Sequence record: OR352956.1
Direction: 5' to 3' (one strand)
From: Escherichia phage AV126
Length of the DNA: 64,000 nucleotides
Under the pieces are notes generated by a model. That model was given only the letters and a program-made list of their open reading frames with translations. It was not told where the DNA came from and did no database searches. The position numbers were made by a program, and so were the translations under genes. Position 1 is the stretch's first letter; every line of letters starts with the position of its first letter. This document shows positions 2,631 through 55,635 of the stretch, piece by piece.

Positions 2631-2682
2631 GTATTTCGTAGGGCGGGGCAATAAGGCAACGCCCATTAATGAGGGTAGAATC

Positions 2683-2787
2683 ATGTTAGAGAAAATTTTC
2701 ACGGTTGCAGTAGTTGGCCTGGCGTTATCGGTTGGAGTGGTTGCAACTATGGCTAATATGATCCTATCTTCCCACGGTATCGGCTAA
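2683..2787 (+). CDS. hypothetical hydrophobic peptide (34 aa)
   Basis: short ORF with GAGGG SD-like motif directly after promoter and hairpin. Confidence 0.3.
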   Translation: MLEKIFTVAVVGLALSVGVVATMANMILSSHGIG

Positions 2788-2797
2788 GGTGAAACAA

Positions 2798-3013
2798 ATG
2801 ATCACGAATAAGACAGGTAAAACGGAATTTTTACGCGGCTTGCAAGTTGGTAAACCTGAGATCTGGCATTGTACTAAATCCGCGCATAATGAAATGAAAG
2901 ATTTTACCGCTACTTTACAACGTGTTAAAATATCTATCACACAGAAAAAAGCCTTGTTAGTAGTAGAAAACGAGATCCCGCAAACTATTATTATTGTCGA
3001 GCGTACAGCATGA
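2798..3013 (+). CDS. hypothetical protein
   Basis: ORF 2789..3013 (GTG) trimmed to ATG at 2798; AAGGTG SD-like motif. Confidence 0.45.
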   Translation: MITNKTGKTEFLRGLQVGKPEIWHCTKSAHNEMKDFTATLQRVKISITQKKALLVVENEIPQTIIIVERTA

Positions 3014-3396
3014 AAACAGAAATCATTATTGAAATCATCAACGGTTATAAAGAAGCCTTTATTTTTGCTGAATCAGCAAGGGATCATGAAGGTAATTTTA
3101 TTGAAAACTTAGACGATTATGATTTTTCTCCTAGCGCGGACGAACGGATCGCCCAGGATGTAACAGCCTTTATTAATGCTAATCTTGCCGCTATCTCTGA
3201 GGCAATGAGCGACGGCGCAACAGCCAACCAGATCGGGAATGATTTACATTTTACCCGTAACGGTCACGGCGTAGGCTTTTGGGATCGCCCTGAAATATAC
3301 ACCACTAACACGGCGAACCGCCTAACCAATGCAGCTAAGTTTATGCCGAACGTGTCGGCTTACATTGGTGAAGATAATTTGATTTATATTGAATAA
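3010..3396 (+). CDS. hypothetical acidic protein (128 aa)
   Basis: ORF whose ATG overlaps the upstream stop (ATGA coupling). Confidence 0.55.
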   Translation: MKTEIIIEIINGYKEAFIFAESARDHEGNFIENLDDYDFSPSADERIAQDVTAFINANLAAISEAMSDGATANQIGNDLHFTRNGHGVGFWDRPEIYTTNTANRLTNAAKFMPNVSAYIGEDNLIYIE

Positions 3397-3402
3397 AAAG
3401 TA

Positions 3403-3430
3403 TTGACACAGATCGCCAGTGTGCTAATAT
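3403..3430 (+). promoter_or_regulatory. sigma70-like promoter (TTGACA - 16 nt - TAATAT)
   Basis: consensus hexamers followed by leader hairpin GGGCGGCAATGGTGCCGCC. Confidence 0.55.
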
Positions 3431-3477
3431 TTACCACGTAGGGCGGCAATGGTGCCGCCGATAATGAGGAAAGTAAA

Positions 3478-3777
3478 ATGGAAACTATCGCTATTGTTAC
3501 CGTAGAAAAACTGGTTGTTGGTGATGTATTCGCGTTAATGGTGCCTAACAGCAGCAAGCTGGGCGCTTATGAAGTAATGGATCATAAAAATGAATCATTT
3601 GGCGACGGTTGCACAATGGCGGTAAAATCTTTAAAGGATGGAATCATCCGCCAGGCTAACTGGCACAAAGGGAATCAAGTCGGTTTAATATCAGCTAATT
3701 TCTTGCCAGAAGAGCAAACGTTAGACCAACTATCAGGCGGTAAGACGTTAGCCGAACTACTGGAAACAGCGATCTAA
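3478..3777 (+). CDS. hypothetical protein (99 aa)
   Basis: ORF with SD-like motif after promoter and leader hairpin. Confidence 0.55.
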   Translation: METIAIVTVEKLVVGDVFALMVPNSSKLGAYEVMDHKNESFGDGCTMAVKSLKDGIIRQANWHKGNQVGLISANFLPEEQTLDQLSGGKTLAELLETAI

Positions 3778-23758: not shown

Positions 23759-24559
23759 TTATTTGTTTAAATGGTCTTCAACCATTTTGATAAAGCCTTC
23801 ATCACTGAAGACTGTTCCTGCTTTCTCTCGGTAGACAAGCACTCCACGTTCTTCGTAGAGAGTTTGTTCTACAAAATTCAAACCTGGGTTAACTACTACC
23901 ATCTTAACCCCAATATTCAGGGCAGGGAAGAGTTCCCAGTTGAAGTTGATTACTTGGTTAGAGCAGCCTACAACGATAACCATATCTTGTGATGTTAGTT
24001 GATCCAGTTTGTGATACATGTCTGTGTAGAGTGGTGCATTCTCACCAAAAAACACCACATTAGGCTTCACATATTTGTAATCGTCTACATCAATAGCTGC
24101 GTAACCCACATCTTTGATAATTTTGTTATCAACAACAACTTCTGGCAAGAAGCCATGAACGTGCAATATTTCTTCTCTATCGATTCCAGCGCGTTCTAAT
24201 AGATCGTCAACGTTAGTAGTAATGTTAATAATCCTTTCTGCACCGTATTTTTCGAACCATTCTCCAATCTGAAGATGTGCTGGATTCGGGTCAACTTTCT
24301 CTAATTCCACGCGACGTTTATTGTAGAAGTCGTGAGTTTTACGGTAGAGGTTATATCCTTCCACATCTAAGCCACCCATAGCATCAGGAATACCCTGTTC
24401 TTGCTGATAACCGTCACGGAAGTTGAAAATGTCACAGACTTCTGTTAAATCGTATTCATCCCATAATGCCTTTCCAGAATCTGTTTCTGTGCGAAATGTT
24501 TGGATTCCGCTGTCAGCACTTAGTCCCGCACCACTAATAAAATATACACGTCTTGGCAT
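23759..24559 (-). CDS. Sir2-like NAD-binding protein (no zinc-ribbon cysteines)
   Basis: GAGLSADSGI Rossmann motif, sirtuin-like NITTNVDDLLERAG, HG and VVFFGE motifs; no CxxC pairs. Confidence 0.55.
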   Translation of the reverse strand: MPRRVYFISGAGLSADSGIQTFRTETDSGKALWDEYDLTEVCDIFNFRDGYQQEQGIPDAMGGLDVEGYNLYRKTHDFYNKRRVELEKVDPNPAHLQIGEWFEKYGAERIINITTNVDDLLERAGIDREEILHVHGFLPEVVVDNKIIKDVGYAAIDVDDYKYVKPNVVFFGENAPLYTDMYHKLDQLTSQDMVIVVGCSNQVINFNWELFPALNIGVKMVVVNPGLNFVEQTLYEERGVLVYREKAGTVFSDEGFIKMVEDHLNK

Positions 24560-25032
24560 TATTCGTCCTCCTCAAATGGATCATAAGAATCATATTCGTA
24601 AGTATCATCTTCTGAAAATTCTACTTCGAAATAAATATCAAACTCTGCAAACAGACGTAGGATGTTAGACATGCTATAATAATTATCGTAGGCAGATTCA
24701 GCTTCATAGTAAACATAAAGCAAATGGTTAGCCTTATCATCTTCCAAATATTTCCCGTCTGCATACGCATAGTCTGCATATGCTTTACCTGCATCTTCTA
24801 CAAGAGAACGATCAAGCAGAGTAGGAAATGGTTTCTCTTTTTCTTTTAGTTTGCTCACCAACCAATGTGCAATATCATTCCATTCTGCATCCATACCACT
24901 AAAGCAACTTGCTTCTTCTCCAAAAGAAGCTTCTCCTAAATCGCCACTAATACGAACAACATTAGATGAATTATAGCCACACGTTTCACAATCAGAGTAA
25001 CTATTATGCACATTGACATTTACTTGAAACAT
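24559..25032 (-). CDS. hypothetical acidic protein (157 aa)
   Basis: start overlaps upstream stop. Confidence 0.5.
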   Translation of the reverse strand: MFQVNVNVHNSYSDCETCGYNSSNVVRISGDLGEASFGEEASCFSGMDAEWNDIAHWLVSKLKEKEKPFPTLLDRSLVEDAGKAYADYAYADGKYLEDDKANHLLYVYYEAESAYDNYYSMSNILRLFAEFDIYFEVEFSEDDTYEYDSYDPFEEDE

Positions 25033-32844: not shown

Positions 32845-33354
32845 TTAAACAAAATAAAATGGTTGAGAGAGGCCCAAACGATTCTTTGGGTCGTATACAT
32901 ACCAAGCGTATGCTGTCTTATCTGTTCCACCTGCAACAAACGAAGGCCGTTCTGAAAGAACTATAAGGTTTGTCGGTGGATTCTTTTGATGGAACTCTCG
33001 TCGTTTCTTTGACTCCAAGAAGCCCAACCGAAGAAGATAAATACAAACATCCGCCTCTTTTAAGCTCTTTTCCAAGAACTCCATTGCTAACTTAAATGGA
33101 GGGTTTGTGATTATAATGTCGGGACGATTTTCCCACTCGTGACTAAAATAATCCTTACCTTCTTCAAGTTCACAATATTCTGAACCTTCAGGAAAATGGC
33201 GATAAATCGCTTCAGCTTCACCTCTGCAAGGTTCTGCAAAAACCCAACCTTCTTCCTTTAGATTTTTGAAATCTATAACACTAAACAAACTGTTGATTGC
33301 TTTTTGCGGTGTCGGATAATAATCGCTCGTTGGGCGATCATAATCTAATGCCAT
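32845..33354 (-). CDS. DNA N6-adenine methyltransferase (small phage Dam-like)
   Basis: YYPTP motif and IIITNPPF (DPPY-type) catalytic motif. Confidence 0.6.
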   Translation of the reverse strand: MALDYDRPTSDYYPTPQKAINSLFSVIDFKNLKEEGWVFAEPCRGEAEAIYRHFPEGSEYCELEEGKDYFSHEWENRPDIIITNPPFKLAMEFLEKSLKEADVCIYLLRLGFLESKKRREFHQKNPPTNLIVLSERPSFVAGGTDKTAYAWYVYDPKNRLGLSQPFYFV

Positions 33355-33772
33355 CTAAAATCTCCTCTTTTGTAATATTATCCAACTCTTTAAAGGATGA
33401 AATCTCGTTTAATAATCCTATTTGATCAGCCTCTAGAGGATAAGTGTTTTTATCTGTTTTTCTAGACAGAATATCTTCAACAAACTTATCAATAGCCAAA
33501 GAAGAATCATAAAATTTTAAAAGTTGGTAATCCATAGGAGATATTTTGTCATCTCTTAGAAATATTTCTAACATGTTTTCAGGAGTATCGTGGTTTAGTT
33601 TATGTTCACCAAAAATATTAACTTCGTAAACATCTTTGCCAAACCAACGTTTTTTCTTTTCAACAGTATAGGTTTTTGCCACCAGACCATCTAAACAGTT
33701 TCTTGCCCTCTTACATGTTTGACGGTAAGAGTGGATAGCGCCTTCAACAAACTTAGCAGGAACTTGTAACAT
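33338..33772 (-). CDS. hypothetical protein (144 aa)
   Basis: ORF in operon. Confidence 0.5.
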   Translation of the reverse strand: MLQVPAKFVEGAIHSYRQTCKRARNCLDGLVAKTYTVEKKKRWFGKDVYEVNIFGEHKLNHDTPENMLEIFLRDDKISPMDYQLLKFYDSSLAIDKFVEDILSRKTDKNTYPLEADQIGLLNEISSFKELDNITKEEILDGIRL

Positions 33773-33817
33773 TATTAATCTCCTATGTTTAAGAAATGCC
33801 CCCGAAGGGGCAGTTTG

Positions 33818-34510
33818 TTAAATAGCGGTTCCTTCGAAATCCGCCACATTTACGAGATTAATATTTTCAGATTTAGAAGTCAAGTTGTTTTCTGCAACAG
33901 ATTTTTCTTCAGTATCCGCCTCGTTACCTGCCACGTTACGAGGTTCTTCTTCACCGTAGGGATTACCGAATTTCAAAAGATTGATCAATTCTTCTTTGGA
34001 GAAGTTTTCTAAATCATCGTCTGTTAATTCAATAATCTCATCTTGTTCTTCAACAAATGTTTCACCACCAGAAAAAGCATCTCGCTTTTTAGCTACTTCC
34101 ATAGCCTGTTCTGGTGTTGCCCCTGCATCAAGAGCAGCTAAAGCAAAGTCTGACCCGCTTCCTACCGCATAATATTCTTCATCAATCGGATATGCACGTG
34201 TTGGGTTGTTACCTTCGTGCAGGAAAATACGTCCGTCAGGATGAACAACAAGTGCAATAAACTCTTCATCTTCTTTATCTGGATCAGAGTGAATCATCAA
34301 ACCAGGGACAGCATCACGTGCTGCTTCGCACTGTAGGTTTTGTTCAAACCATTGAAAGAAAGAAAGCACGGAGGTCAGACGACCAGCACCACCTACAAGG
34401 TAATCTCCAATTTTTCGGACCTTTTTGAAATTAATAGAATCTACACGTCCGCCAAAAGTTACCTTACCATCACTCAAAATCTTATTCTTGGTTGCAATAA
34501 TTGTCGTCAC
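33818..34510 (-). CDS. HslV-like N-terminal-threonine peptidase with acidic C-terminal extension
   Basis: MTTIIATKN start (Thr directly after Met), GGAG and AVGSGSDFALAAL blocks align with HslV; about 50 extra acidic residues at the C-terminus. Confidence 0.6.
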   Translation of the reverse strand: MTTIIATKNKILSDGKVTFGGRVDSINFKKVRKIGDYLVGGAGRLTSVLSFFQWFEQNLQCEAARDAVPGLMIHSDPDKEDEEFIALVVHPDGRIFLHEGNNPTRAYPIDEEYYAVGSGSDFALAALDAGATPEQAMEVAKKRDAFSGGETFVEEQDEIIELTDDDLENFSKEELINLLKFGNPYGEEEPRNVAGNEADTEEKSVAENNLTSKSENINLVNVADFEGTAI

Positions 34511-35013
34511 TATTCTTCCTCCTCTGTTAATGTTTTAAGAACCGCTTTCCCGCCATTCACATATTTGCAGATGTATTCTATCGCACGTAGTGTCTCTTTG
34601 TCAACAAAAATTTGATCAGACGTTGCGAGCGGGTTATTAAGAAGATCACTGCAATCACGAACAAGCAGTGCTTTCTTATTAAACAAATTACTTAAGAACA
34701 GTAACTTCGCCTCTTCTTCTGTTATGTGCAGAAGGCTAGGATCGGAGCCAGCTATTCCTATTATACAATCAAACAAGCTTTCTTTACTATCAGAAAGTTC
34801 TTGAAAATGGTTTAAAAGCCAATCTTCTCCTAGACACCAACATTTAAACATTTCCAGTTTATCTCGGAGGGTCATATTCTCTAAAGTAAGAGCAATCTCT
34901 TTTTCAATATGGTTTACACAAATTTGACGAAATTCGTTAGGTTTTACGAGTCCCGTTTGATAGCACTCATCTATACCGCTTCTTCCGATAGCTATTGTTG
35001 CTACACCCATCAA
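34510..35013 (-). CDS. hypothetical protein (167 aa)
   Basis: coupled ORF. Confidence 0.5.
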   Translation of the reverse strand: MMGVATIAIGRSGIDECYQTGLVKPNEFRQICVNHIEKEIALTLENMTLRDKLEMFKCWCLGEDWLLNHFQELSDSKESLFDCIIGIAGSDPSLLHITEEEAKLLFLSNLFNKKALLVRDCSDLLNNPLATSDQIFVDKETLRAIEYICKYVNGGKAVLKTLTEEEE

Positions 35014-35045
35014 TCCTCCTTATAAATGGCTTCCCTGCCACGTTA

Positions 35046-35804
35046 TTAAATAAACACTTCAGTAATCAGTTTAGACAAACGTCCACGTTTATTATCGTCC
35101 GTTGTCAGTTCAACATATCCAATAAAATCTACAATTGGCTCACGAACACCTTCTTCATTTTCTGGATATAAAAGTTCCAAAATTTGATGCAGACCATTGC
35201 TACGTTTTTTAATTGCATATGTCTGGCGAACATCACCTAATACAATAACATGCGTATTAATACCTGCACGTTCAATAAGAAGTTTAAGTGTTTCTGTTGA
35301 CATAAGTTGTGCTTCGTCAATAATGACAATTGTATTATCCAGGGTAGCTCCCAACAAATAGTTAGGAATATTCAATTCGATCTTACCTGATCCAATATCG
35401 TTTTCCAATTTGTTGGCTGTCATGAATTGCTGGAAAATACGTTTTGTAGATTCATAGTGTGCTGCTAGTTTATCTGTTTTATCCCCAGACAAGAAACCAA
35501 TCTGGTCATCTCCGACTTCAGTAGGGTTTTTGATAAAAAGTAGTTTACGGAAGTCTCCTGAACGAAGCATCTGCAAAGCTTTCCATAAAGCAACAGAGGT
35601 TTTACCAGTCCCTGCCGGAGCATTTACAACAGTCAGATCATTCCAAATCATGCTTTGAACAATCTTATTTTGGTCCCCTTCAGGCATAAATTCATCTAAA
35701 CGGTAATCGTCATTACCTACCGCTTTTGCTGCATAACGGCTTTCAATCTTTGCTGAATTAGCCAGTTTCTGCCGTTGTGTTTTAGCTGCGGTTTTATTTC
35801 CCAT
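35046..35804 (-). CDS. phoH: PhoH-like ATPase
   Basis: Walker A GTGKTSVAL and Walker B IIDEAQ; start trimmed to ATG at 35804 with AAGGAG SD. Confidence 0.8.
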   Translation of the reverse strand: MGNKTAAKTQRQKLANSAKIESRYAAKAVGNDDYRLDEFMPEGDQNKIVQSMIWNDLTVVNAPAGTGKTSVALWKALQMLRSGDFRKLLFIKNPTEVGDDQIGFLSGDKTDKLAAHYESTKRIFQQFMTANKLENDIGSGKIELNIPNYLLGATLDNTIVIIDEAQLMSTETLKLLIERAGINTHVIVLGDVRQTYAIKKRSNGLHQILELLYPENEEGVREPIVDFIGYVELTTDDNKRGRLSKLITEVFI

Positions 35805-35841
35805 AGTAGCACTCCTTTTAGAAGGGGCCGAAGCCCCTTTA

Positions 35842-36342
35842 TTAGTTGTAAGCATCTAAAGTTCCAGAAGTCAGAACTTTAATTACTCGTTCAGCACGGT
35901 TTGGCGTCTGGCTATACCATCGGCTTTTACGCATGTTTTTACCTGCTTGAGTATAATATGCATTGCTGATTAAAGTCAAGCTATTTTGAAACCCTTCAGC
36001 ACCTTTTAACCCCAACTGGAAAACCATGTTGATTATTCCCAATTTACGAGTATCACTCACCTTATCATAGATTGGTGATAAGATAGCACTGTTTTTTATG
36101 TCTCTCTTCACTTTTGCAACATCGTCAGCAAAGATTTGACGGGCTTCTTTTTCTGTGATAACTCCATTGGTCTTACGACCAAGGAGATTATCTAAGATTT
36201 GAATAGCCTTTGCTTTATCTTTTATTTTAGTCAGAAGGTGTCCTATGCCGACTGTCCAATAACCAAGATGGTCTTGATAAACAGTAAGCTTCAGTCCTTC
36301 ATCGACTCGTAGCATATCAAACTCATCTACTACTTTAGCCAT
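35842..36342 (-). CDS. T4-type lysozyme (glycoside hydrolase family 24 endolysin)
   Basis: near-collinear match to the T4 lysozyme sequence, including EGLKLTVYQD, YWTVGIGHLL and WYSQTPNRAERVI. Confidence 0.9.
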   Translation of the reverse strand: MAKVVDEFDMLRVDEGLKLTVYQDHLGYWTVGIGHLLTKIKDKAKAIQILDNLLGRKTNGVITEKEARQIFADDVAKVKRDIKNSAILSPIYDKVSDTRKLGIINMVFQLGLKGAEGFQNSLTLISNAYYTQAGKNMRKSRWYSQTPNRAERVIKVLTSGTLDAYN

Positions 36343-36504
36343 TTACTTCCTATTCGTCGTCTCCTACTCCGTGATCCAACTCGTTAAACAATAGATGTTC
36401 TGGAGAAGTTTCACGTTTTGGTTTCGTTTTCTTTATGTTGGACTTCAGCTCATTTGCCAAAGCACGAGAAAAGATCTTACGTTTCTGTTTACTTTTCATA
36501 ATTG

Positions 36505-41969: not shown

Positions 41970-42012
41970 TTAAAATTCTCCTCAATAAAAGGGGGCCGAA
42001 GCCCCTTTATAT

Positions 42013-42669
42013 TTAGCCTCGAAATACTGTTTTTGTTTCCGCCAGGTGCCAATAGAAATCAGCTTTGTTTACAAGAGTGTTGTACACCTCTGGATAAAAA
42101 TGTTCTTCCTCTTTGTAACGATCTGCTGTTTCCCTGATTGACTTAGCTTTATCCTTTAGCCAAGCGAAGTGTGCCTCTTCCTCTGTAGAGAAGTAGCCTA
42201 AATGCTTTCCTTTACTCCCAGAAGCTTTGGCATAAATCTTACCATCTTTCCTAACATGTGCTCCTAGTAAGTATTTTCTTTCATACCTCTTAGCATAACT
42301 TAAGAGTGTATTTATATAAGGAGGAACAAACCTACAATATTCAGGACAATAAACAGTATTTCCTTCAAGAACAAGATCTTTATCTAAAACAAAGCCTTCC
42401 ACATTGTGTTCTTGATACTAGTTATCAAAGTTTGAAAAGGTGAACCAAGCATCACACACAGTAACATCTTTATAACCTGGTCTAATGTTTTCCATACGAT
42501 ATGCACGATTAAACATGCCTTTCCAAGCTGCATAGGAAGGGTCTATGAATGTATTAACCCTTTTCCCATTGATAACACCACCTTCCCACAATCTACGTTC
42601 AACATCCACAATCAAGGGGATTTCTCCCCTCTCTGTGAGAACGGTAACTTTACGTTTACCCTTCTTCAT
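42013..42669 (-). pseudogene. homing-endonuclease-like gene (AP2-domain type) interrupted by an in-frame TAG
   Basis: ORFs 42418..42669 and 42013..42402 are in the same frame, separated by an amber codon at 42418-42420; C-terminal part has an AP2-like HLGYFSTEEEAHFAW motif. Confidence 0.45.
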
Positions 42670-42680
42670 CTGTTCTCCTA

Positions 42681-44924
42681 CTACATTTTACAGGCACTAC
42701 ACCCTTCGTCTTCAGAATCTTCTTGTGCTAAAGAATCTGCTGATTTTGTTCTACTGTTAAGGTAATACAATGACTTACCACCCAGTCTAGCAAAATTCAG
42801 AATAAACTGCATCTCAGCTTTCACTGATAAACGTCCACCTACCAATTTAGAATAATCTAGCCAAGAATCACAAGAAATTCCTTGGTCCGTAAACTTGGTA
42901 AAGATACCATACATTTCTGCAAGATCTTTAGCCGGAGTGTCCCAGGCAGACTGGTAGAACATTTTCAGTTTTTCATAATCTGGAACAATAAATAATACGC
43001 TACCTTTCTGACTTTGTTTATACATAATAGTATCACGAACAGGGTACAGAGAGTTAGTAGTATTGCTTACCAAACTGCTGGACTCATTAGGTGCAATAGC
43101 AGCCAAGACACTGTTACGGATACCACCTTGTTCAATGATTTCAGCACGTAAGCCTTCCCAGTCCATTTTAAGATCAAAATTACCGATACTATCTACTGTT
43201 TTAGCATAAGTGTCAATTGGTAGCCAACCTTGAGGCCATTTGGTCTTATCGATCCATTCTGCATTACCTTTTTCCTTAGCCAGACGCAGAGAGGCTTTTG
43301 CCAACCAAAAGTAATGACGTTCTGCAAGTTCATGCATTAATTTTTTAGCATAAGCATCTGAATAATTTACAAAATTACTTGCCAAATAATGCGCTAAGTT
43401 TGTAATACCTACACCAATAGATCTACGTGCTTTAGCAGTTATTTCGTTATGTTTAAATGGATAATCCATTGTTTCAATAACGTTGTCAATTGTCAATACA
43501 GTGTAGTATGCAACATCCTCATATTCTTCAGGTAAGACACGACCAGCGACAATAGAAGATAAGAAGCATAAAGCCAATTCTTGATCTTCTGTATTCTCAC
43601 CAGTAAAGAGATCCGGCATACTGTGGAAAGCTTTAGTTGGTAAGAAGATCTCTTGACACAGGTTTGATTGATACACCGTATCCAGGAAAGGTGTATGGTT
43701 GTTAACGTTGTCAGCAAAGAACATGTAAATACGTCCTGTTTCTGCACGTTGAACAATAATCTCTGTCAGAAGATCACGAGCCTTAACAAATTTTTTCTTA
43801 ATGCGACGACGGCTTACTTTGTCATAAACTGCATCAAACTCTTCTTCACTTTTATACAAGGCTTCATAAAGTTCAGGAGCATCATCACAACTAACTAACA
43901 TCCAGTCTTCGTTTTTTGCTGCTCGACGCAAGAACGAACGGTTAACAACAATAGAATAATCTAGTTTGTCTACTCGTTTATCTATAGGTGTTGTTGGATT
44001 CTTCAGTCGAATCAGATCGTCGAAGTCTGGTTCAAGTATGGTAAAGGTAACTGTAGCACTACCTCCACGGCTTGCTTGCTTCGAAGCTCCAACACTATCT
44101 TCCATCCATTTCAGATATGGAAGAAGACCACCATGAATAATACGATTATTCTTAACACCTTGACCTGTGGCACGAGTTTGAAGATTAACACCAATACCTG
44201 CGTTATTCAACGTATACTCATGAGCTAAGTAATTAGCAATGGCTAAAGACTCTGCCGTATCGTCTGCACGGAACAAACAACAAGACGCACTTCCTTTGAT
44301 TGGAGTTCGTAGAGTTGTCAGATACGGCGATGGCAGATTAATCTTGAGATCGCTAACATAAGTATAAAGTTTTTTAATATCTTCTATACGGCGTTCTTTT
44401 GGTTGGATCTCCATAACCTTCATTGCGATACCAATGAAAAGAAACTGTGGAGACTCATGCACCACATCGTTTACTGCATCTCGAATAAGATATTTATCTA
44501 CCATCTGACGTAAAACAGAATAACCATAAGTTAGATTTTTATTATGCTTTACAATCTTACCGATTTCTTTGATCTCTTCATCAGTATAATCCATTTTAGC
44601 CCAATGTCCACGTTCTACCATATCATGATAAAAGGTATTCAGTGAAGGGATACTGTGGTATCCCCCATGAGCCTGTTTGTAAATCATACCCAGAAGAAGT
44701 CTTCCTGCCATATCACTGTAAGCTTGTGTTTTCTTGTCAATACACGCTGCAATCATTGCTTTATGCAGATCACGTGTAGACACACCGTCATAACACCGCT
44801 TCACAGCTTCTAATTCAATTTCAGACCAGTTTAGTTTACCTGCTGCAAATTCAGACCACTTGCGAAGTTTTTCTGGATTAAACTCCTCTGTCTTACCATT
44901 AGATTTAGTTACAAAACGAATCAA
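42681..44924 (-). CDS. nrdA: ribonucleotide reductase large subunit (class Ia alpha)
   Basis: N-terminal ATP-cone, ~750 aa, adjacent to nrdB. Confidence 0.9.
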   Translation of the reverse strand: MIRFVTKSNGKTEEFNPEKLRKWSEFAAGKLNWSEIELEAVKRCYDGVSTRDLHKAMIAACIDKKTQAYSDMAGRLLLGMIYKQAHGGYHSIPSLNTFYHDMVERGHWAKMDYTDEEIKEIGKIVKHNKNLTYGYSVLRQMVDKYLIRDAVNDVVHESPQFLFIGIAMKVMEIQPKERRIEDIKKLYTYVSDLKINLPSPYLTTLRTPIKGSASCCLFRADDTAESLAIANYLAHEYTLNNAGIGVNLQTRATGQGVKNNRIIHGGLLPYLKWMEDSVGASKQASRGGSATVTFTILEPDFDDLIRLKNPTTPIDKRVDKLDYSIVVNRSFLRRAAKNEDWMLVSCDDAPELYEALYKSEEEFDAVYDKVSRRRIKKKFVKARDLLTEIIVQRAETGRIYMFFADNVNNHTPFLDTVYQSNLCQEIFLPTKAFHSMPDLFTGENTEDQELALCFLSSIVAGRVLPEEYEDVAYYTVLTIDNVIETMDYPFKHNEITAKARRSIGVGITNLAHYLASNFVNYSDAYAKKLMHELAERHYFWLAKASLRLAKEKGNAEWIDKTKWPQGWLPIDTYAKTVDSIGNFDLKMDWEGLRAEIIEQGGIRNSVLAAIAPNESSSLVSNTTNSLYPVRDTIMYKQSQKGSVLFIVPDYEKLKMFYQSAWDTPAKDLAEMYGIFTKFTDQGISCDSWLDYSKLVGGRLSVKAEMQFILNFARLGGKSLYYLNSRTKSADSLAQEDSEDEGCSACKM

Positions 44925-44940
44925 CTTCTCCTCCCTATTA

Positions 44941-45195
44941 TTAATGCATATTCAAAACATCTACATCATAACCGAACTTCATTTCATTAAAAAGTCCATT
45001 AGCATATAGAAAACCTTCAAAATGAGTTATGTCATCAAACCCTTTTGCTTTTGCTCGACGGTCTGCTTCTTGTCTTTTAGGAGATAAACGTTTTGAAGTG
45101 TCTAGAATTACAGTTACATTACAACCAACAGTTTCATCAAAATAGACTTCGATTTCACAGCCTTCATATTTATTATCAGTCATTGTCCCTCTCAT
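44941..45195 (-). CDS. hypothetical protein (84 aa)
   Basis: ORF in operon. Confidence 0.45.
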   Translation of the reverse strand: MRGTMTDNKYEGCEIEVYFDETVGCNVTVILDTSKRLSPKRQEADRRAKAKGFDDITHFEGFLYANGLFNEMKFGYDVDVLNMH

Positions 45196-55089: not shown

Positions 55090-55635
55090 CTATAAAATAA
55101 TTTTATGATGGTCTACAGTGATAACTTCTCGTTTTTCCATCATTTCGATAATTTCATCAAAATGCAGGATCTTACCGTGTGCATCCCAACCCACATCTAA
55201 CATTTTACCATAAGCTTCATCAGGGAAAGATCCGTGGGAATGCCCGTGTAGCATGATTGATCCACGACCTTGTTTATTCCAGGAGGCCATAGGGTAATGA
55301 CTTAAGACGAAGAACAGCTTCTGATATTTCACTTCGTCATAATACACCACTTCACCATACTCTGCAAGCACTTCTCGGTGTTTGCTGTAGTCATGGTTCC
55401 CAACACAGTAGGTGATATCTCCTTGGAGACGGGAAGCAATTTTACGGGTATCTTCTTCAGTTCCGAAACAGAAGTCGCCCAAATGCCACATCTTAACACC
55501 AGGAGTAGTAGCACATTTGTTCCATGCTTCGATCAAGGCTTCTGTCATGTGGTCCATATCTTCCCACGGACGATATTCAGGAGCAAACTCTCGAATACGT
55601 TTATGCATAAAATGCAAATCGCTTGTAATAAACAT
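55090..55635 (-). CDS. metallophosphoesterase
   Basis: SDLHF, GDF, GNHD and GHSH calcineurin-like motifs. Confidence 0.6.
   Translation of the reverse strand: MFITSDLHFMHKRIREFAPEYRPWEDMDHMTEALIEAWNKCATTPGVKMWHLGDFCFGTEEDTRKIASRLQGDITYCVGNHDYSKHREVLAEYGEVVYYDEVKYQKLFFVLSHYPMASWNKQGRGSIMLHGHSHGSFPDEAYGKMLDVGWDAHGKILHFDEIIEMMEKREVITVDHHKIIL

What the first reader, a model, noticed from the sequence alone, without database searches (positions are those of the whole stretch)
33818..34510. Stand-alone HslV-like threonine peptidase with an acidic tail and no HslU partner
The N-terminus (Thr directly after Met, GGAG and AVGSGSDFALAAL blocks) aligns with the proteasome-like HslV peptidase, but the protein carries an extra ~50-residue Asp/Glu-rich C-terminal extension, and no AAA+ HslU-like gene is seen in this window. 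A phage-borne HslV might hijack host HslU/ClpX-type unfoldases or act as a decoy.
Basis: partly seen in the sequence, partly recalled or inferred. Interest (0 to 1): 0.45.

Follow-up and report, generated by a model that had tools for sequence, protein, structure and literature searches.

The report
Phage proteasome-like peptidase, known family
This is a real gene for a proteasome/HslV-like threonine peptidase in a phAPEC8-type E. coli phage; the family is already annotated and described, its job in infection is still unknown, and the new details are a structured-plus-disordered acidic tail and a conserved small partner gene.

Summary
The ORF is real. It lies at window 33818-34510 on the minus strand, is 230 aa long and starts with GTG. 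The window is a Phapecoctavirus (phAPEC8-like E. coli myovirus). The gene is 99% identical to phAPEC8_0094, which RefSeq already names 'peptidase HslV family' (PHROG 1040).

The catalytic set is invariant across homologues: Thr after Met, Asp14, Lys30, GGAG and GSG. The AF2 model has a proteasome-beta/HslV/BPH fold.

It is not an HslV orthologue. It scores 31-32 bits against NCBIfam cut-offs of 137-158, lacks helix H2, and keeps few of the HslU-tail pocket residues. It fits the phage 'PPH/RPC' branch of Fuchs, Alva and Lupas (2021).

No HslU- or ClpX-like gene occurs in the window or in a collinear complete genome. The one AAA ATPase elsewhere has a different phage distribution.

The tail is about 75 aa with net charge -15. 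It has a conserved, confidently modelled two-helix hairpin followed by a fast-evolving disordered acidic stretch.

A translationally coupled helical protein of unknown fold (phrog_14834) sits upstream, after PhoH, in every relative checked down to about 45% identity. One phage genome carries a 1.1-kb deletion through this block, so the block is probably dispensable.

The function is untested. It is most likely an unfoldase-independent peptidase. Interest is low to moderate.

The parts
33818..34510 (-). Gene for the 230-aa proteasome-family (HslV/PPH-like) N-terminal-nucleophile peptidase; equals phAPEC8_0094 / HOV53_gp078.
   Evidence: ORF; PHROG 1040 E=9.7e-64; Pfam PF00227; PDB HslV hits; 99-100% identical copies in Phapecoctavirus genomes annotated 'peptidase HslV family'.
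34046..34510 (-). Catalytic core, residues 1-155. Thr2 is the nucleophile after Met removal. Asp14, Lys30, G40-G43 (GGAG) and G117-S118-G119 are the other active-site elements.
   Evidence: Invariant columns M1 T2 T3 I4 D14 K30 G117 S118 G119 in 42-43 homologues. They align to HslV Thr1, Asp17, Lys33, G45-G48 and G123-G125. AF2 pLDDT is mostly 91-99 for residues 1-160, dipping to 82 in block 71-80.
34259..34309 (-). Acidic loop, residues 68-84 (VPGLMIHSDPDKEDEEF), occupying the place of HslV helix H2.
   Evidence: DSSP on the AF2 model shows no helix between H1 (45-67) and strand 85-89. Net charge is -5. 12-16 of 17 residues are kept in relatives with 80-90% core identity. Absence of H2 is the PPH/RPC trait in PMC8665760.
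33944..34045 (-). Proximal tail, residues 156-189: conserved motif ELTDDDLENFSKEELINLLKFG, modelled as two short helices (164-169 and 172-181).
   Evidence: The motif is kept down to Aeromonas and Vibrio phage homologues at 33% identity. pLDDT is 92-94. No Pfam match.
33821..33943 (-). Distal tail, residues 190-230: disordered, acidic, and fast-evolving in sequence and length.
   Evidence: pLDDT is 46-57. Net charge is -5 here and -15 for the whole tail. Only 15-25% identity where the core is about 80% identical, and the segment is absent or replaced by other domains in relatives.
34510..35013 (-). Upstream partner ORF 'X' (166-167 aa, phrog_14834, function unknown), translationally coupled to the peptidase gene because its stop overlaps the peptidase start.
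35046..35855 (-). PhoH-like P-loop ATPase gene, constant upstream neighbour of X and the peptidase in this phage lineage.
   Evidence: Pfam PhoH E=1.2e-36. Order lysozyme-PhoH-X-peptidase. PhoH lies further upstream in the Aeromonas and Vibrio phages. Not adjacent in Caulobacter, Rhizobium or N4-like phages.
34518..34522 (-). Shine-Dalgarno GGAGG, 7 nt upstream of the GTG start.
   Evidence: Read directly from the sequence.
33787..33812 (-). Terminator-like GC hairpin (TGCCCC-TTCG-GGGGCA) plus a T-rich run, 6 nt after the stop codon.
   Evidence: Consensus scan only. Not annotated as a terminator in the Schickermooser record.
34575..34604 (-). Sigma-70-like promoter match (TTGACA-18-TAGAAT, 11 of 12) inside X, about 65 nt upstream of the peptidase start.
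   Evidence: Consensus scan only. Such matches are only mildly enriched over shuffles, 40 against 29.

Best explanation
The ORF encodes a catalytically competent proteasome-family threonine peptidase of the phage-borne branch that Fuchs, Alva and Lupas (2021) called PPH/RPC. It is not an orthologue of bacterial HslV.

Shown here:
- Host methionine aminopeptidase would expose Thr2 as the N-terminal nucleophile (the sequence has Thr directly after the start Met).
- Asp14, Lys30, the GGAG loop and the GSG loop complete an HslV-type active site.
- The fold is the proteasome-beta sandwich without helix H2.
- The gene lies in the leftward block of nucleotide-metabolism and DNA-replication genes. It is separate from the prohead protease and the structural genes.

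Inferred:
- Like HslV and BPH, it probably assembles into stacked rings.
- It probably cleaves peptides or unfolded or disordered proteins without a dedicated AAA+ unfoldase.
- The C-terminal extension is an appended module. A conserved helical hairpin packs on the core. After it comes a variable part: a disordered acidic tail here, other domains in relatives. This variable part probably tunes access, regulation or targeting.
- The translationally coupled helical protein X is probably an accessory subunit (regulator, adaptor or inhibitor).
- The module looks like an accessory function rather than an essential one.
For: Identity and active site:
- Family and structure hits.
- Invariant T2, D14, K30 and G117-S118-G119, with nearly invariant GGAG, across 42-43 homologues.
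- 197 of 282 homologues start MTT.
- AF2 model pLDDT 86, pTM 0.72.

Not an HslV orthologue, and PPH-like:
- NCBIfam HslV equivalogs score 31-32 bits against cut-offs 137 and 158.
- No H2 in the model, the trait PMC8665760 gives for PPH/RPC.
- The next tier of homologues is 130-160 aa, E 1e-10 to 1e-16.
- The best compact structural match is a 131-aa Caulobacter phage protein, TM 0.89.

No dedicated unfoldase:
- The whole-genome annotation of a collinear relative has only one AAA gene, gp174.
- gp174 matches generic AAA only, with no HslU or ClpX signal.
- gp174 is spread among Enterococcus, Bacillus and Staphylococcus phages that are not among the peptidase hits. It is not prominent among the Vibrio, Caulobacter and Rhizobium phages that carry the peptidase.
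- PMC8665760 likewise found no co-occurring AAA+ for any new proteasome homologue.

Tail anatomy.

Partner X.

Non-structural role: a separate S78-type prohead protease gene sits next to portal and capsid genes.

Dispensability: the VEcB record MT932211 carries a 1,122-bp deletion, flanked by 8-bp microhomology. It fuses the PhoH N-terminus to peptidase residue ~63 onward and removes X and the catalytic Thr.
Against: - No activity, oligomer or substrate was or could be tested. Ring assembly is assumed by analogy. PMC8665760 warns that some homologues may not form rings.
- ATP-independence is inferred from absence of evidence. E. coli supplies HslU, ClpX and ClpA, and docking could use a non-canonical surface.
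- The constant PhoH-X-peptidase order may only reflect shared ancestry of one phage lineage. It is absent in Caulobacter, Rhizobium and N4-like phages, and X is undetectable next to the Aeromonas and Vibrio homologues.
- The VEcB deletion comes from one database record. It could be a laboratory variant or an assembly artefact. Another assembly of the same species, 98-99% identical across the region, is intact.
Confidence: 0.55

Rival explanations
1. One reading: the phage peptidase docks onto host HslU (or another host AAA+ unfoldase such as ClpX or ClpA) and forms a hybrid ATP-dependent protease that redirects degradation during infection.
For: - HslV is the closest solved sequence relative.
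- The E. coli host encodes HslU (established knowledge).
- No phage unfoldase is available.
- F57 and E61 equivalents on helix H1 are kept (alignment).
Against: - Helix H2, part of the apical HslU-facing surface, is replaced by an acidic loop.
- Pocket residues from PMC6429459 are changed: F54 to L, Q114 to P, A79/K80 to H/S in a non-helical segment.
- Lys28 becomes Ser. Its role in binding the HslU C-terminal carboxylate is from my memory of Sousa et al. 2000, not checked here.
- The protein scores far below the HslV equivalog cut-offs.
- Related phage proteins of the same fold occur in phages of Gordonia. HslVU is reported absent from Actinobacteria (Table 1 of PMC8665760). Those proteins are distant, however.
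Confidence: 0.15
2. It is a specific processing enzyme rather than a bulk protease. It would cut (or, like connectase, ligate) one defined phage or host protein, possibly recruited by the tail or by X. Alternatively it hydrolyses a non-protein amide, as other Ntn hydrolases do.
For: - The proteasome-like family includes the highly specific ligase connectase, and authors expect new quaternary forms and functions (PMC8665760).
- The variable C-terminal modules in relatives look like targeting domains: an HeH-like end, or a W-rich beta-like domain.
- There is a tightly coupled partner gene X.
- An HslVU-family protein of Erwinia phage RAY localises to the phage nucleus with DNA-handling proteins (bioRxiv 10.1101/2023.02.24.529968).
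Against: - There is no S3/S4 lid insertion like that of connectase; the strands are contiguous in the model.
- The closest structures are the ring-forming HslV and BPH.
- No candidate substrate was identified.
- The HeH reading of relatives' tails is sub-threshold (Rho_N E=0.063), and this phage's own tail lacks that motif.
Confidence: 0.2
3. It is a catalytically irrelevant decoy or inhibitor that titrates host HslU or another host factor. The acidic tail could, for example, mimic a substrate or nucleic acid.
For: - The tail is highly acidic and disordered.
- Phages are known to block host proteases, for example T4 PinA against Lon (my own knowledge, not checked here).
Against: - Thr2, Asp14, Lys30 and GSG are invariant over homologues down to about 26% identity, which is not expected for a pure binder.
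- The distal tail is the least conserved part, and it is missing or replaced in many relatives.
- The docking surface is not conserved.
Confidence: 0.05

Closest known systems
[quoted passage not shown]
   Same: - Phage-borne group-I proteasome homologue.
- No propeptide beyond Met.
- Catalytic Thr, Asp and Lys kept.
- Compact core lacking helix H2 and lacking S12/H5.
- No co-occurring AAA+.
- Function unknown.
- RPC-like in carrying a C-terminal extension of unknown fold.

   Different: - PPH is described as about 140 aa. This protein has a 155-aa core plus a 75-aa tail.
- RPC is reported only from proteobacterial genomes, not phages.
- I could not place the protein in their cluster map because their sequence sets were not available here.
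- The X partner and the PhoH neighbourhood are not described in that paper, which states that no informative gene context was found.
Bacterial HslV (ClpQ), peptidase of the HslUV ATP-dependent protease
   Same: - Best sequence match among solved structures.
- Same fold.
- Thr directly after Met.
- Asp17, Lys33, GxAG and GSG equivalents.
   Different: - Fails the NCBIfam equivalogs by more than 100 bits.
- 4-residue shorter first hairpin.
- No H2.
- HslU-tail pocket residues mostly changed.
- No hslU gene partner.
- Extra 75-aa tail.
BPH (beta-proteobacterial proteasome homologue; PDB 5ovs)
   Same: - Second-best structural match.
- Stand-alone double-ring peptidase with no known unfoldase.
- BPH has a long, highly acidic pore loop after H1/H2 (PMC8665760). 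This protein has an acidic loop after H1.
   Different: - BPH retains H2 and is bacterial.
- Identity is only 20-22%.
- BPH has no C-terminal hairpin or tail and no X-like partner is described for it.
- The equivalence of the acidic loops is a resemblance, not tested.
PHROG phrog_1040 'peptidase HslV family'
   Same: Full-length match, E=9.7e-64, covering residues 1-229 including the tail. The Aeromonas, Vibrio, Caulobacter and Rhizobium phage genes carry the same label.
   Different: A PHROG is an annotation cluster without experimental function. Its name suggests HslV, which overstates the relationship.

Membership tests
Proteasome-like Ntn hydrolases (Pfam PF00227 clan) | Proteasome-beta alpha/beta sandwich fold | tested here: met
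   Pfam PF00227 at 25.6 bits, above the 22.4 cut-off. AF2 model pLDDT 86. Foldseek probability 1.00 to HslV, BPH and 20S beta, E around 1e-10.
Proteasome-like Ntn hydrolases (Pfam PF00227 clan) | N-terminal Thr nucleophile with Asp17, Lys33 and the glycine oxyanion loop | tested here: met
   T2, D14 and K30 are invariant and GGAG is nearly invariant. They align to HslV T1, D17, K33 and G45-G48.
HslV (ClpQ) proper | Scores as an HslV equivalog (NCBIfam TIGR03692 / NF003964) | tested here: not met
   31.4 and 32.2 bits against cut-offs 157.75 and 137.
HslV (ClpQ) proper | Genetic partnership with an hslU AAA+ gene | tested here: not met
   No HslU or ClpX gene in the window or in the collinear complete genome NC_048196. 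The only AAA gene, gp174, is a generic AAA with a different phage distribution.
HslV (ClpQ) proper | Apical H1/H2 surface and inter-subunit pocket that accept the HslU C-terminal tail (F54, F57, Q114, A79/K80 per PMC6429459) | tested here: not met
   H2 is absent in the model. F54 to L, F57 kept, Q114 to P, A79/K80 to H/S (alignment; residue list). This rests on sequence and a monomer model only; binding was not tested.
HslV (ClpQ) proper | Dodecamer of two hexameric rings | not testable with these tools
   Only monomer prediction was available.
PPH / RPC (PMC8665760) | Compact group-I core lacking helix H2 and lacking S12/H5 | tested here: met
   DSSP on the model gives H1 45-67, then loop 68-84, then strands. 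The last core strand is 151-155. There is no H5-like helix in the core. The trait is stated.
PPH / RPC (PMC8665760) | Encoded by tailed phages or prophage regions | tested here: met
   235 phage records carry homologues. The window is a Phapecoctavirus.
PPH / RPC (PMC8665760) | Length about 140 aa (PPH), or PPH-like core plus a C-terminal domain in proteobacterial genomes (RPC) | tested here: inconclusive
   230 aa, made of a 155-aa core and a 75-aa tail. This is longer than PPH. It resembles RPC in layout but is phage-borne.
PPH / RPC (PMC8665760) | Membership of the authors' sequence cluster (representatives WP_042125023.1 and WP_140207863) | not testable with these tools
   The reference sequences were not retrievable here. 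Indirect support only: 130-160-aa relatives at E 1e-10 to 1e-16.

The most novel reading that the evidence does not exclude
PhoH-X-peptidase could be a phage-specific, unfoldase-independent proteolytic module. In this reading, the small helical protein X (a fold with no known match) gates or targets a ring-forming PPH-type peptidase. The interchangeable C-terminal modules (acidic disordered tail, HeH-like DNA-associated end, W-rich domain) would direct it to different host or phage substrates, for instance nucleoid-associated proteins, during the DNA-metabolism phase of infection. That would be the first functional assignment for any of the 'new' proteasome homologues, and a new kind of regulator for a proteasome-family protease.
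Probability: 0.15. Interest if true: 0.6.

Novelty: already known. Interest (0 to 1): 0.3.

Why it matters
Phage-borne proteasome homologues are widespread. Here, 235 phage genomes carry sequence homologues of this one, and 43 viral structure models share the fold. None has a known substrate, partner or role.

This example does not change that picture. The gene is already annotated and the family is published. It does offer a tractable E. coli system for testing function:
- a peptidase with an intact active site;
- a conserved partner gene;
- a defined tail;
- a naturally occurring deletion variant.

If the partner turned out to regulate the peptidase, it would show how a proteasome-type protease can be controlled without an AAA+ unfoldase.

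Tried and rejected
1. X as a second, inactive (alpha-like) proteasome subunit. This was prompted by Aeromonas phage 4L372D, which has two adjacent HslV-family genes. Rejected: hhalign of X against the peptidase family gives probability 0.2%. The X model is helical and has no Ntn-like match.

2. A phage HslU-like partner elsewhere in the genome. The record's note 'AAA_2' on gp174 looked promising. Rejected:
- Pfam AAA_2 is below its cut-off and only generic AAA passes.
- The best PDB matches are Rix7/SPATA5-type, E around 1e-3.
- There is no HslU or ClpX NCBIfam hit.
- Its phage distribution does not follow the peptidase.

3. PhoH as a functional ATPase partner. It is adjacent only within one related phage lineage and not in Caulobacter, Rhizobium or N4-like phages. 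PhoH is helicase-like, not an unfoldase. Left as unproven.

4. The tail as an HeH/SAP/Rho_N-type DNA-binding motif. There is no Pfam hit for this phage's tail. One relative gives a sub-threshold Rho_N hit, E=0.063.

5. A defence or anti-defence link. No PADLOC hits for the peptidase, X or the downstream ORF.

6. The upstream gene of the Vibrio phage as a remote X homologue. Rejected: hhalign probability 0.2% and no hmmsearch hit.

7. Head-maturation protease. The phage has a separate S78-type protease gene beside portal and capsid.

8. Fold search of X against AFDB50. The library was unavailable.

9. Literature. No experimental paper on PPH-type phage peptidases was found.

Full report
**What is there**

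The finding's coordinates delimit a 230-codon ORF on the minus strand, 33818-34510. It starts with GTG. The G of the upstream ORF's TAG stop is the first base of that GTG, and a GGAGG Shine-Dalgarno lies 7 nt upstream. The two genes are therefore translationally coupled.

**Where the window comes from**

The window is a Phapecoctavirus, a phAPEC8-like E. coli myovirus of about 150 kb. Bases 33000-36500 are 99.5% identical to phage KKP 3954 and 99.3% to Schickermooser. The whole window is 96% covered by, and collinear with, Schickermooser.

The gene equals phAPEC8_0094 / HOV53_gp078. RefSeq already calls it 'peptidase HslV family'.

**Family and active site**

Several independent searches agree:
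- PHROG phrog_1040 'peptidase HslV family' matches over the full length, E=9.7e-64.
- Pfam Proteasome passes its gathering score.
- HslV chains are the best solved relatives, E=5e-9 with the single sequence and 1.5e-15 with the family profile.

In alignments of 42-43 homologues reaching 26% identity, the invariant columns are M1, T2, T3, I4, D14, K30, G117, S118 and G119. GGAG (40-43) is nearly invariant. These residues align with HslV Thr1, Asp17, Lys33, G45-G48 and G123-S124-G125.

Of 282 retrieved relatives, 197 start MTT, so the start and the exposed Thr are secure.

**Structure**

An AF2 model built on the family alignment has mean pLDDT 86 and pTM 0.72. It shows:
- the proteasome-beta sandwich;
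- one long helix (45-67);
- a non-helical acidic loop (68-84, net charge -5) where HslV has helix H2;
- helices 120-128 and 133-143;
- a last core strand at 151-155.

Foldseek ranks HslV, BPH and 20S beta subunits first, at probability 1.00.

**Not an HslV orthologue**

- NCBIfam's HslV equivalogs score 31-32 bits against cut-offs of 137 and 158.
- Lack of H2 is the trait Fuchs, Alva and Lupas (PMC8665760) give for their PPH and RPC groups. [quoted passage not shown] - An exhaustive HMMER scan finds 2,350 cluster representatives at E<=1e-3. The closest ~55 are 180-350 aa and carry tails. The next tier is 130-160 aa.
- The best compact structural match among viral models is a 131-aa Caulobacter phage protein, TM 0.89.

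I therefore file the protein with the PPH/RPC branch. I could not test membership of the authors' actual clusters.

**The tail**

Residues 156-230 hold 20 D/E against 5 K/R, net charge -15. The tail has two parts.

- Residues 156-189 carry a motif, ELTDDDLENFSKEELINLLKFG. It is conserved down to the Aeromonas and Vibrio phage homologues at 33% identity. It is modelled as two short helices with pLDDT 92-94.
- Residues 190-230 are disordered, with pLDDT 46-57. Where the core is about 80% identical, this segment is only 15-25% identical, and its length varies.

In relatives the distal part is replaced by other modules. One is an end that looks HeH/Rho_N-like, but only sub-threshold (E=0.063). Another is a W-rich domain ending ILKWRL. 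Across tails of at least 30 aa, the median is 73 aa with net charge -15.

**Is there an unfoldase?**

Not in the window. The only Walker-A ORFs of at least 120 aa are PhoH and two ORFs with no Pfam match at E<=0.001, so nothing AAA-like.

In the complete collinear genome the only AAA-type gene is gp174 (379 aa), outside the window. Three results argue against gp174 as a partner:
- It passes only the generic AAA model. Its best PDB hits are Rix7/SPATA5-type at E around 1e-3. It has no HslU or ClpX NCBIfam signal.
- It is common in Enterococcus, Bacillus, Staphylococcus and Lactobacillus phages. None of these is among the genera listed for the peptidase hits.
- It is not prominent among the Vibrio, Caulobacter and Rhizobium phages that carry the peptidase.

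So there is no dedicated phage unfoldase. This agrees with PMC8665760 and with an earlier remark on a Salmonella jumbo phage (PMC7823757).

**Could it use host HslU?**

I could test this only indirectly. PMC6429459 lists the HslV residues that receive the HslU tail: F54, F57, Q114 and A79/K80. In the HMMER alignment to T. maritima HslV these map as follows:
- F54 to L49;
- F57 to F52 (kept);
- Q114 to P108;
- A79/K80 to H74/S75, which lie in the loop that replaces H2.

Lys28 maps to Ser25. From memory, Lys28 binds the HslU C-terminal carboxylate; I did not check this here.

This makes canonical docking unlikely but does not exclude other modes.

**Genomic context**

The gene lies in the long leftward block of nucleotide-metabolism and replication genes: nrdAB, the rml genes, glutaredoxin, lysozyme, PhoH and methyltransferases. 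It is far from the structural genes and from the separate S78-type prohead protease.

A GC-rich hairpin with a T-run follows the stop codon, and a sigma-70-like match lies inside the upstream ORF. Both are consensus matches only.

**The upstream partner, X**

The upstream ORF X (34510-35013, phrog_14834) has no Pfam, NCBIfam or PADLOC match.

- Its family alignment has strongly conserved motifs: VKPNEFR, LVRDCSD and VDKETLRA.
- It is not homologous to the peptidase.

X occurs in 133 phage records, the same number as peptidase hits at >=60% identity. I examined four metagenomic lineages whose peptidases are only 45-57% identical to this one and carry different C-terminal modules. In all four the order is lysozyme-PhoH-X-(0 or 1 small ORF)-peptidase, while the downstream genes differ. 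X homology there is confirmed at E=1e-34 to 1e-62.

At greater distance the pairing is lost:
- The Vibrio phage has an unrelated upstream gene.
- The Aeromonas phage has a second HslV-family paralogue there.
- Caulobacter, Rhizobium and N4-like phages show no shared context.

**Dispensability**

GenBank MT932211 (phage VEcB) encodes an in-frame fusion of the PhoH N-terminus to peptidase residue ~63 onward. Compared with another assembly of the same species, 98-99% identical across the region (OZ035773), it has lost 1,122 bp between 8-bp repeats. The deletion removes the PhoH C-terminus, X and the catalytic N-terminus. If the record is correct, the block is not needed for propagation.

**Interpretation**

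Best supported: an active proteasome-family Thr peptidase of the phage PPH/RPC branch. It is probably ring-forming and unfoldase-independent. It carries a conserved helical hairpin plus a variable acidic tail as a regulatory or targeting appendage, and it probably works with protein X.

Shown: identity, active site, fold, absence of H2, tail anatomy, lack of a phage unfoldase, and the X/PhoH linkage.

Inferred: oligomeric state, ATP-independence, and the roles of the tail and of X.

Rivals: host-HslU hijack (0.15), a specific processing or ligase-type enzyme (0.2), and a decoy (0.05).

No experimental study of such phage proteins was found. The nearest hint is that an HslVU-family protein of Erwinia phage RAY localises to the phage nucleus.

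**Verdict**

The 'HslV without HslU' puzzle is a known, still open, minor question. The tail substructure, the conserved X partner and the natural deletion are useful leads rather than discoveries.

Interest 0.3. Novelty: already known.

Noticed in passing
[not shown]
   Followed up: yes
L002 (MT932211 VEcB) 2665-3468 versus L014 (OZ035773) 2639-3760: One VEcB-species record has a 1,122-bp deletion, flanked by 8-bp microhomology, that fuses PhoH in frame to the C-terminal two-thirds of the peptidase. It removes X and the catalytic Thr. This is either a natural or laboratory deletion variant or an assembly artefact.
   Followed up: yes
L003 (Aeromonas phage 4L372D) 3432-3983 and 4001-4885: There are two adjacent HslV-family genes. 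One is a 183-aa paralogue starting (M)TCII. The other is a 294-aa long-tailed one. This raises the possibility of hetero-oligomeric phage proteasome-like particles. A Salmonella jumbo phage is also reported to have two copies (PMC7823757).
   Followed up: partly
L006 (NC_048196) 43887-45026, outside the window: This is the only AAA-type ATPase of this phage type (gp174, 379 aa). It is a generic AAA, not HslU- or ClpX-like. It is shared with many large phages of Gram-positive hosts and is duplicated in Justusliebigvirus genomes. Function unknown.
   Followed up: partly
window 42007-42711: A ~700-bp insert lies between nrdB and nrdA and is absent from Schickermooser. It holds two short minus-strand ORFs (129 and 83 aa). 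The sequence (e.g. GYFSTEEEAHFAWL) looks like an AP2-type DNA-binding domain of a split or decayed homing endonuclease. This is by eye only.
   Followed up: no
window ~55091-55097: Relative to Schickermooser, the window lacks about 1.35 kb that there encodes gp113 (PseT-like 'ATPase') and gp114 (putative RNA ligase), L005 10450-11802. A possible RNA-repair pair is therefore missing from this phage.
   Followed up: no
window 33797-33812 (-) and 34575-34604 (-): A terminator-like GC hairpin lies directly after the peptidase stop codon. A near-consensus sigma-70 promoter match lies inside X, about 65 nt before the peptidase start. Both are consensus matches only. The hairpin is not annotated as a terminator in the relative's record.
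   Followed up: no
L005 (NC_048196) 24492-24971: The RefSeq product name is 'DNA methyltransferase', but the gene's own note cites Peptidase_S78_2 and it sits between portal and capsid genes. It is probably the prohead protease and is mis-named.
   Followed up: no
window 33821-33943 (-), residues 190-230: Within the otherwise unconserved acidic tail there is a weakly recurring short hydrophobic element. Here it is NNLTSKSENINLVNV. Relatives have ESLTLIQDAVNLQ, KDLTLVGSDGSVDFQTL or FILLPSD. It might be a short linear binding motif.
   Followed up: partly
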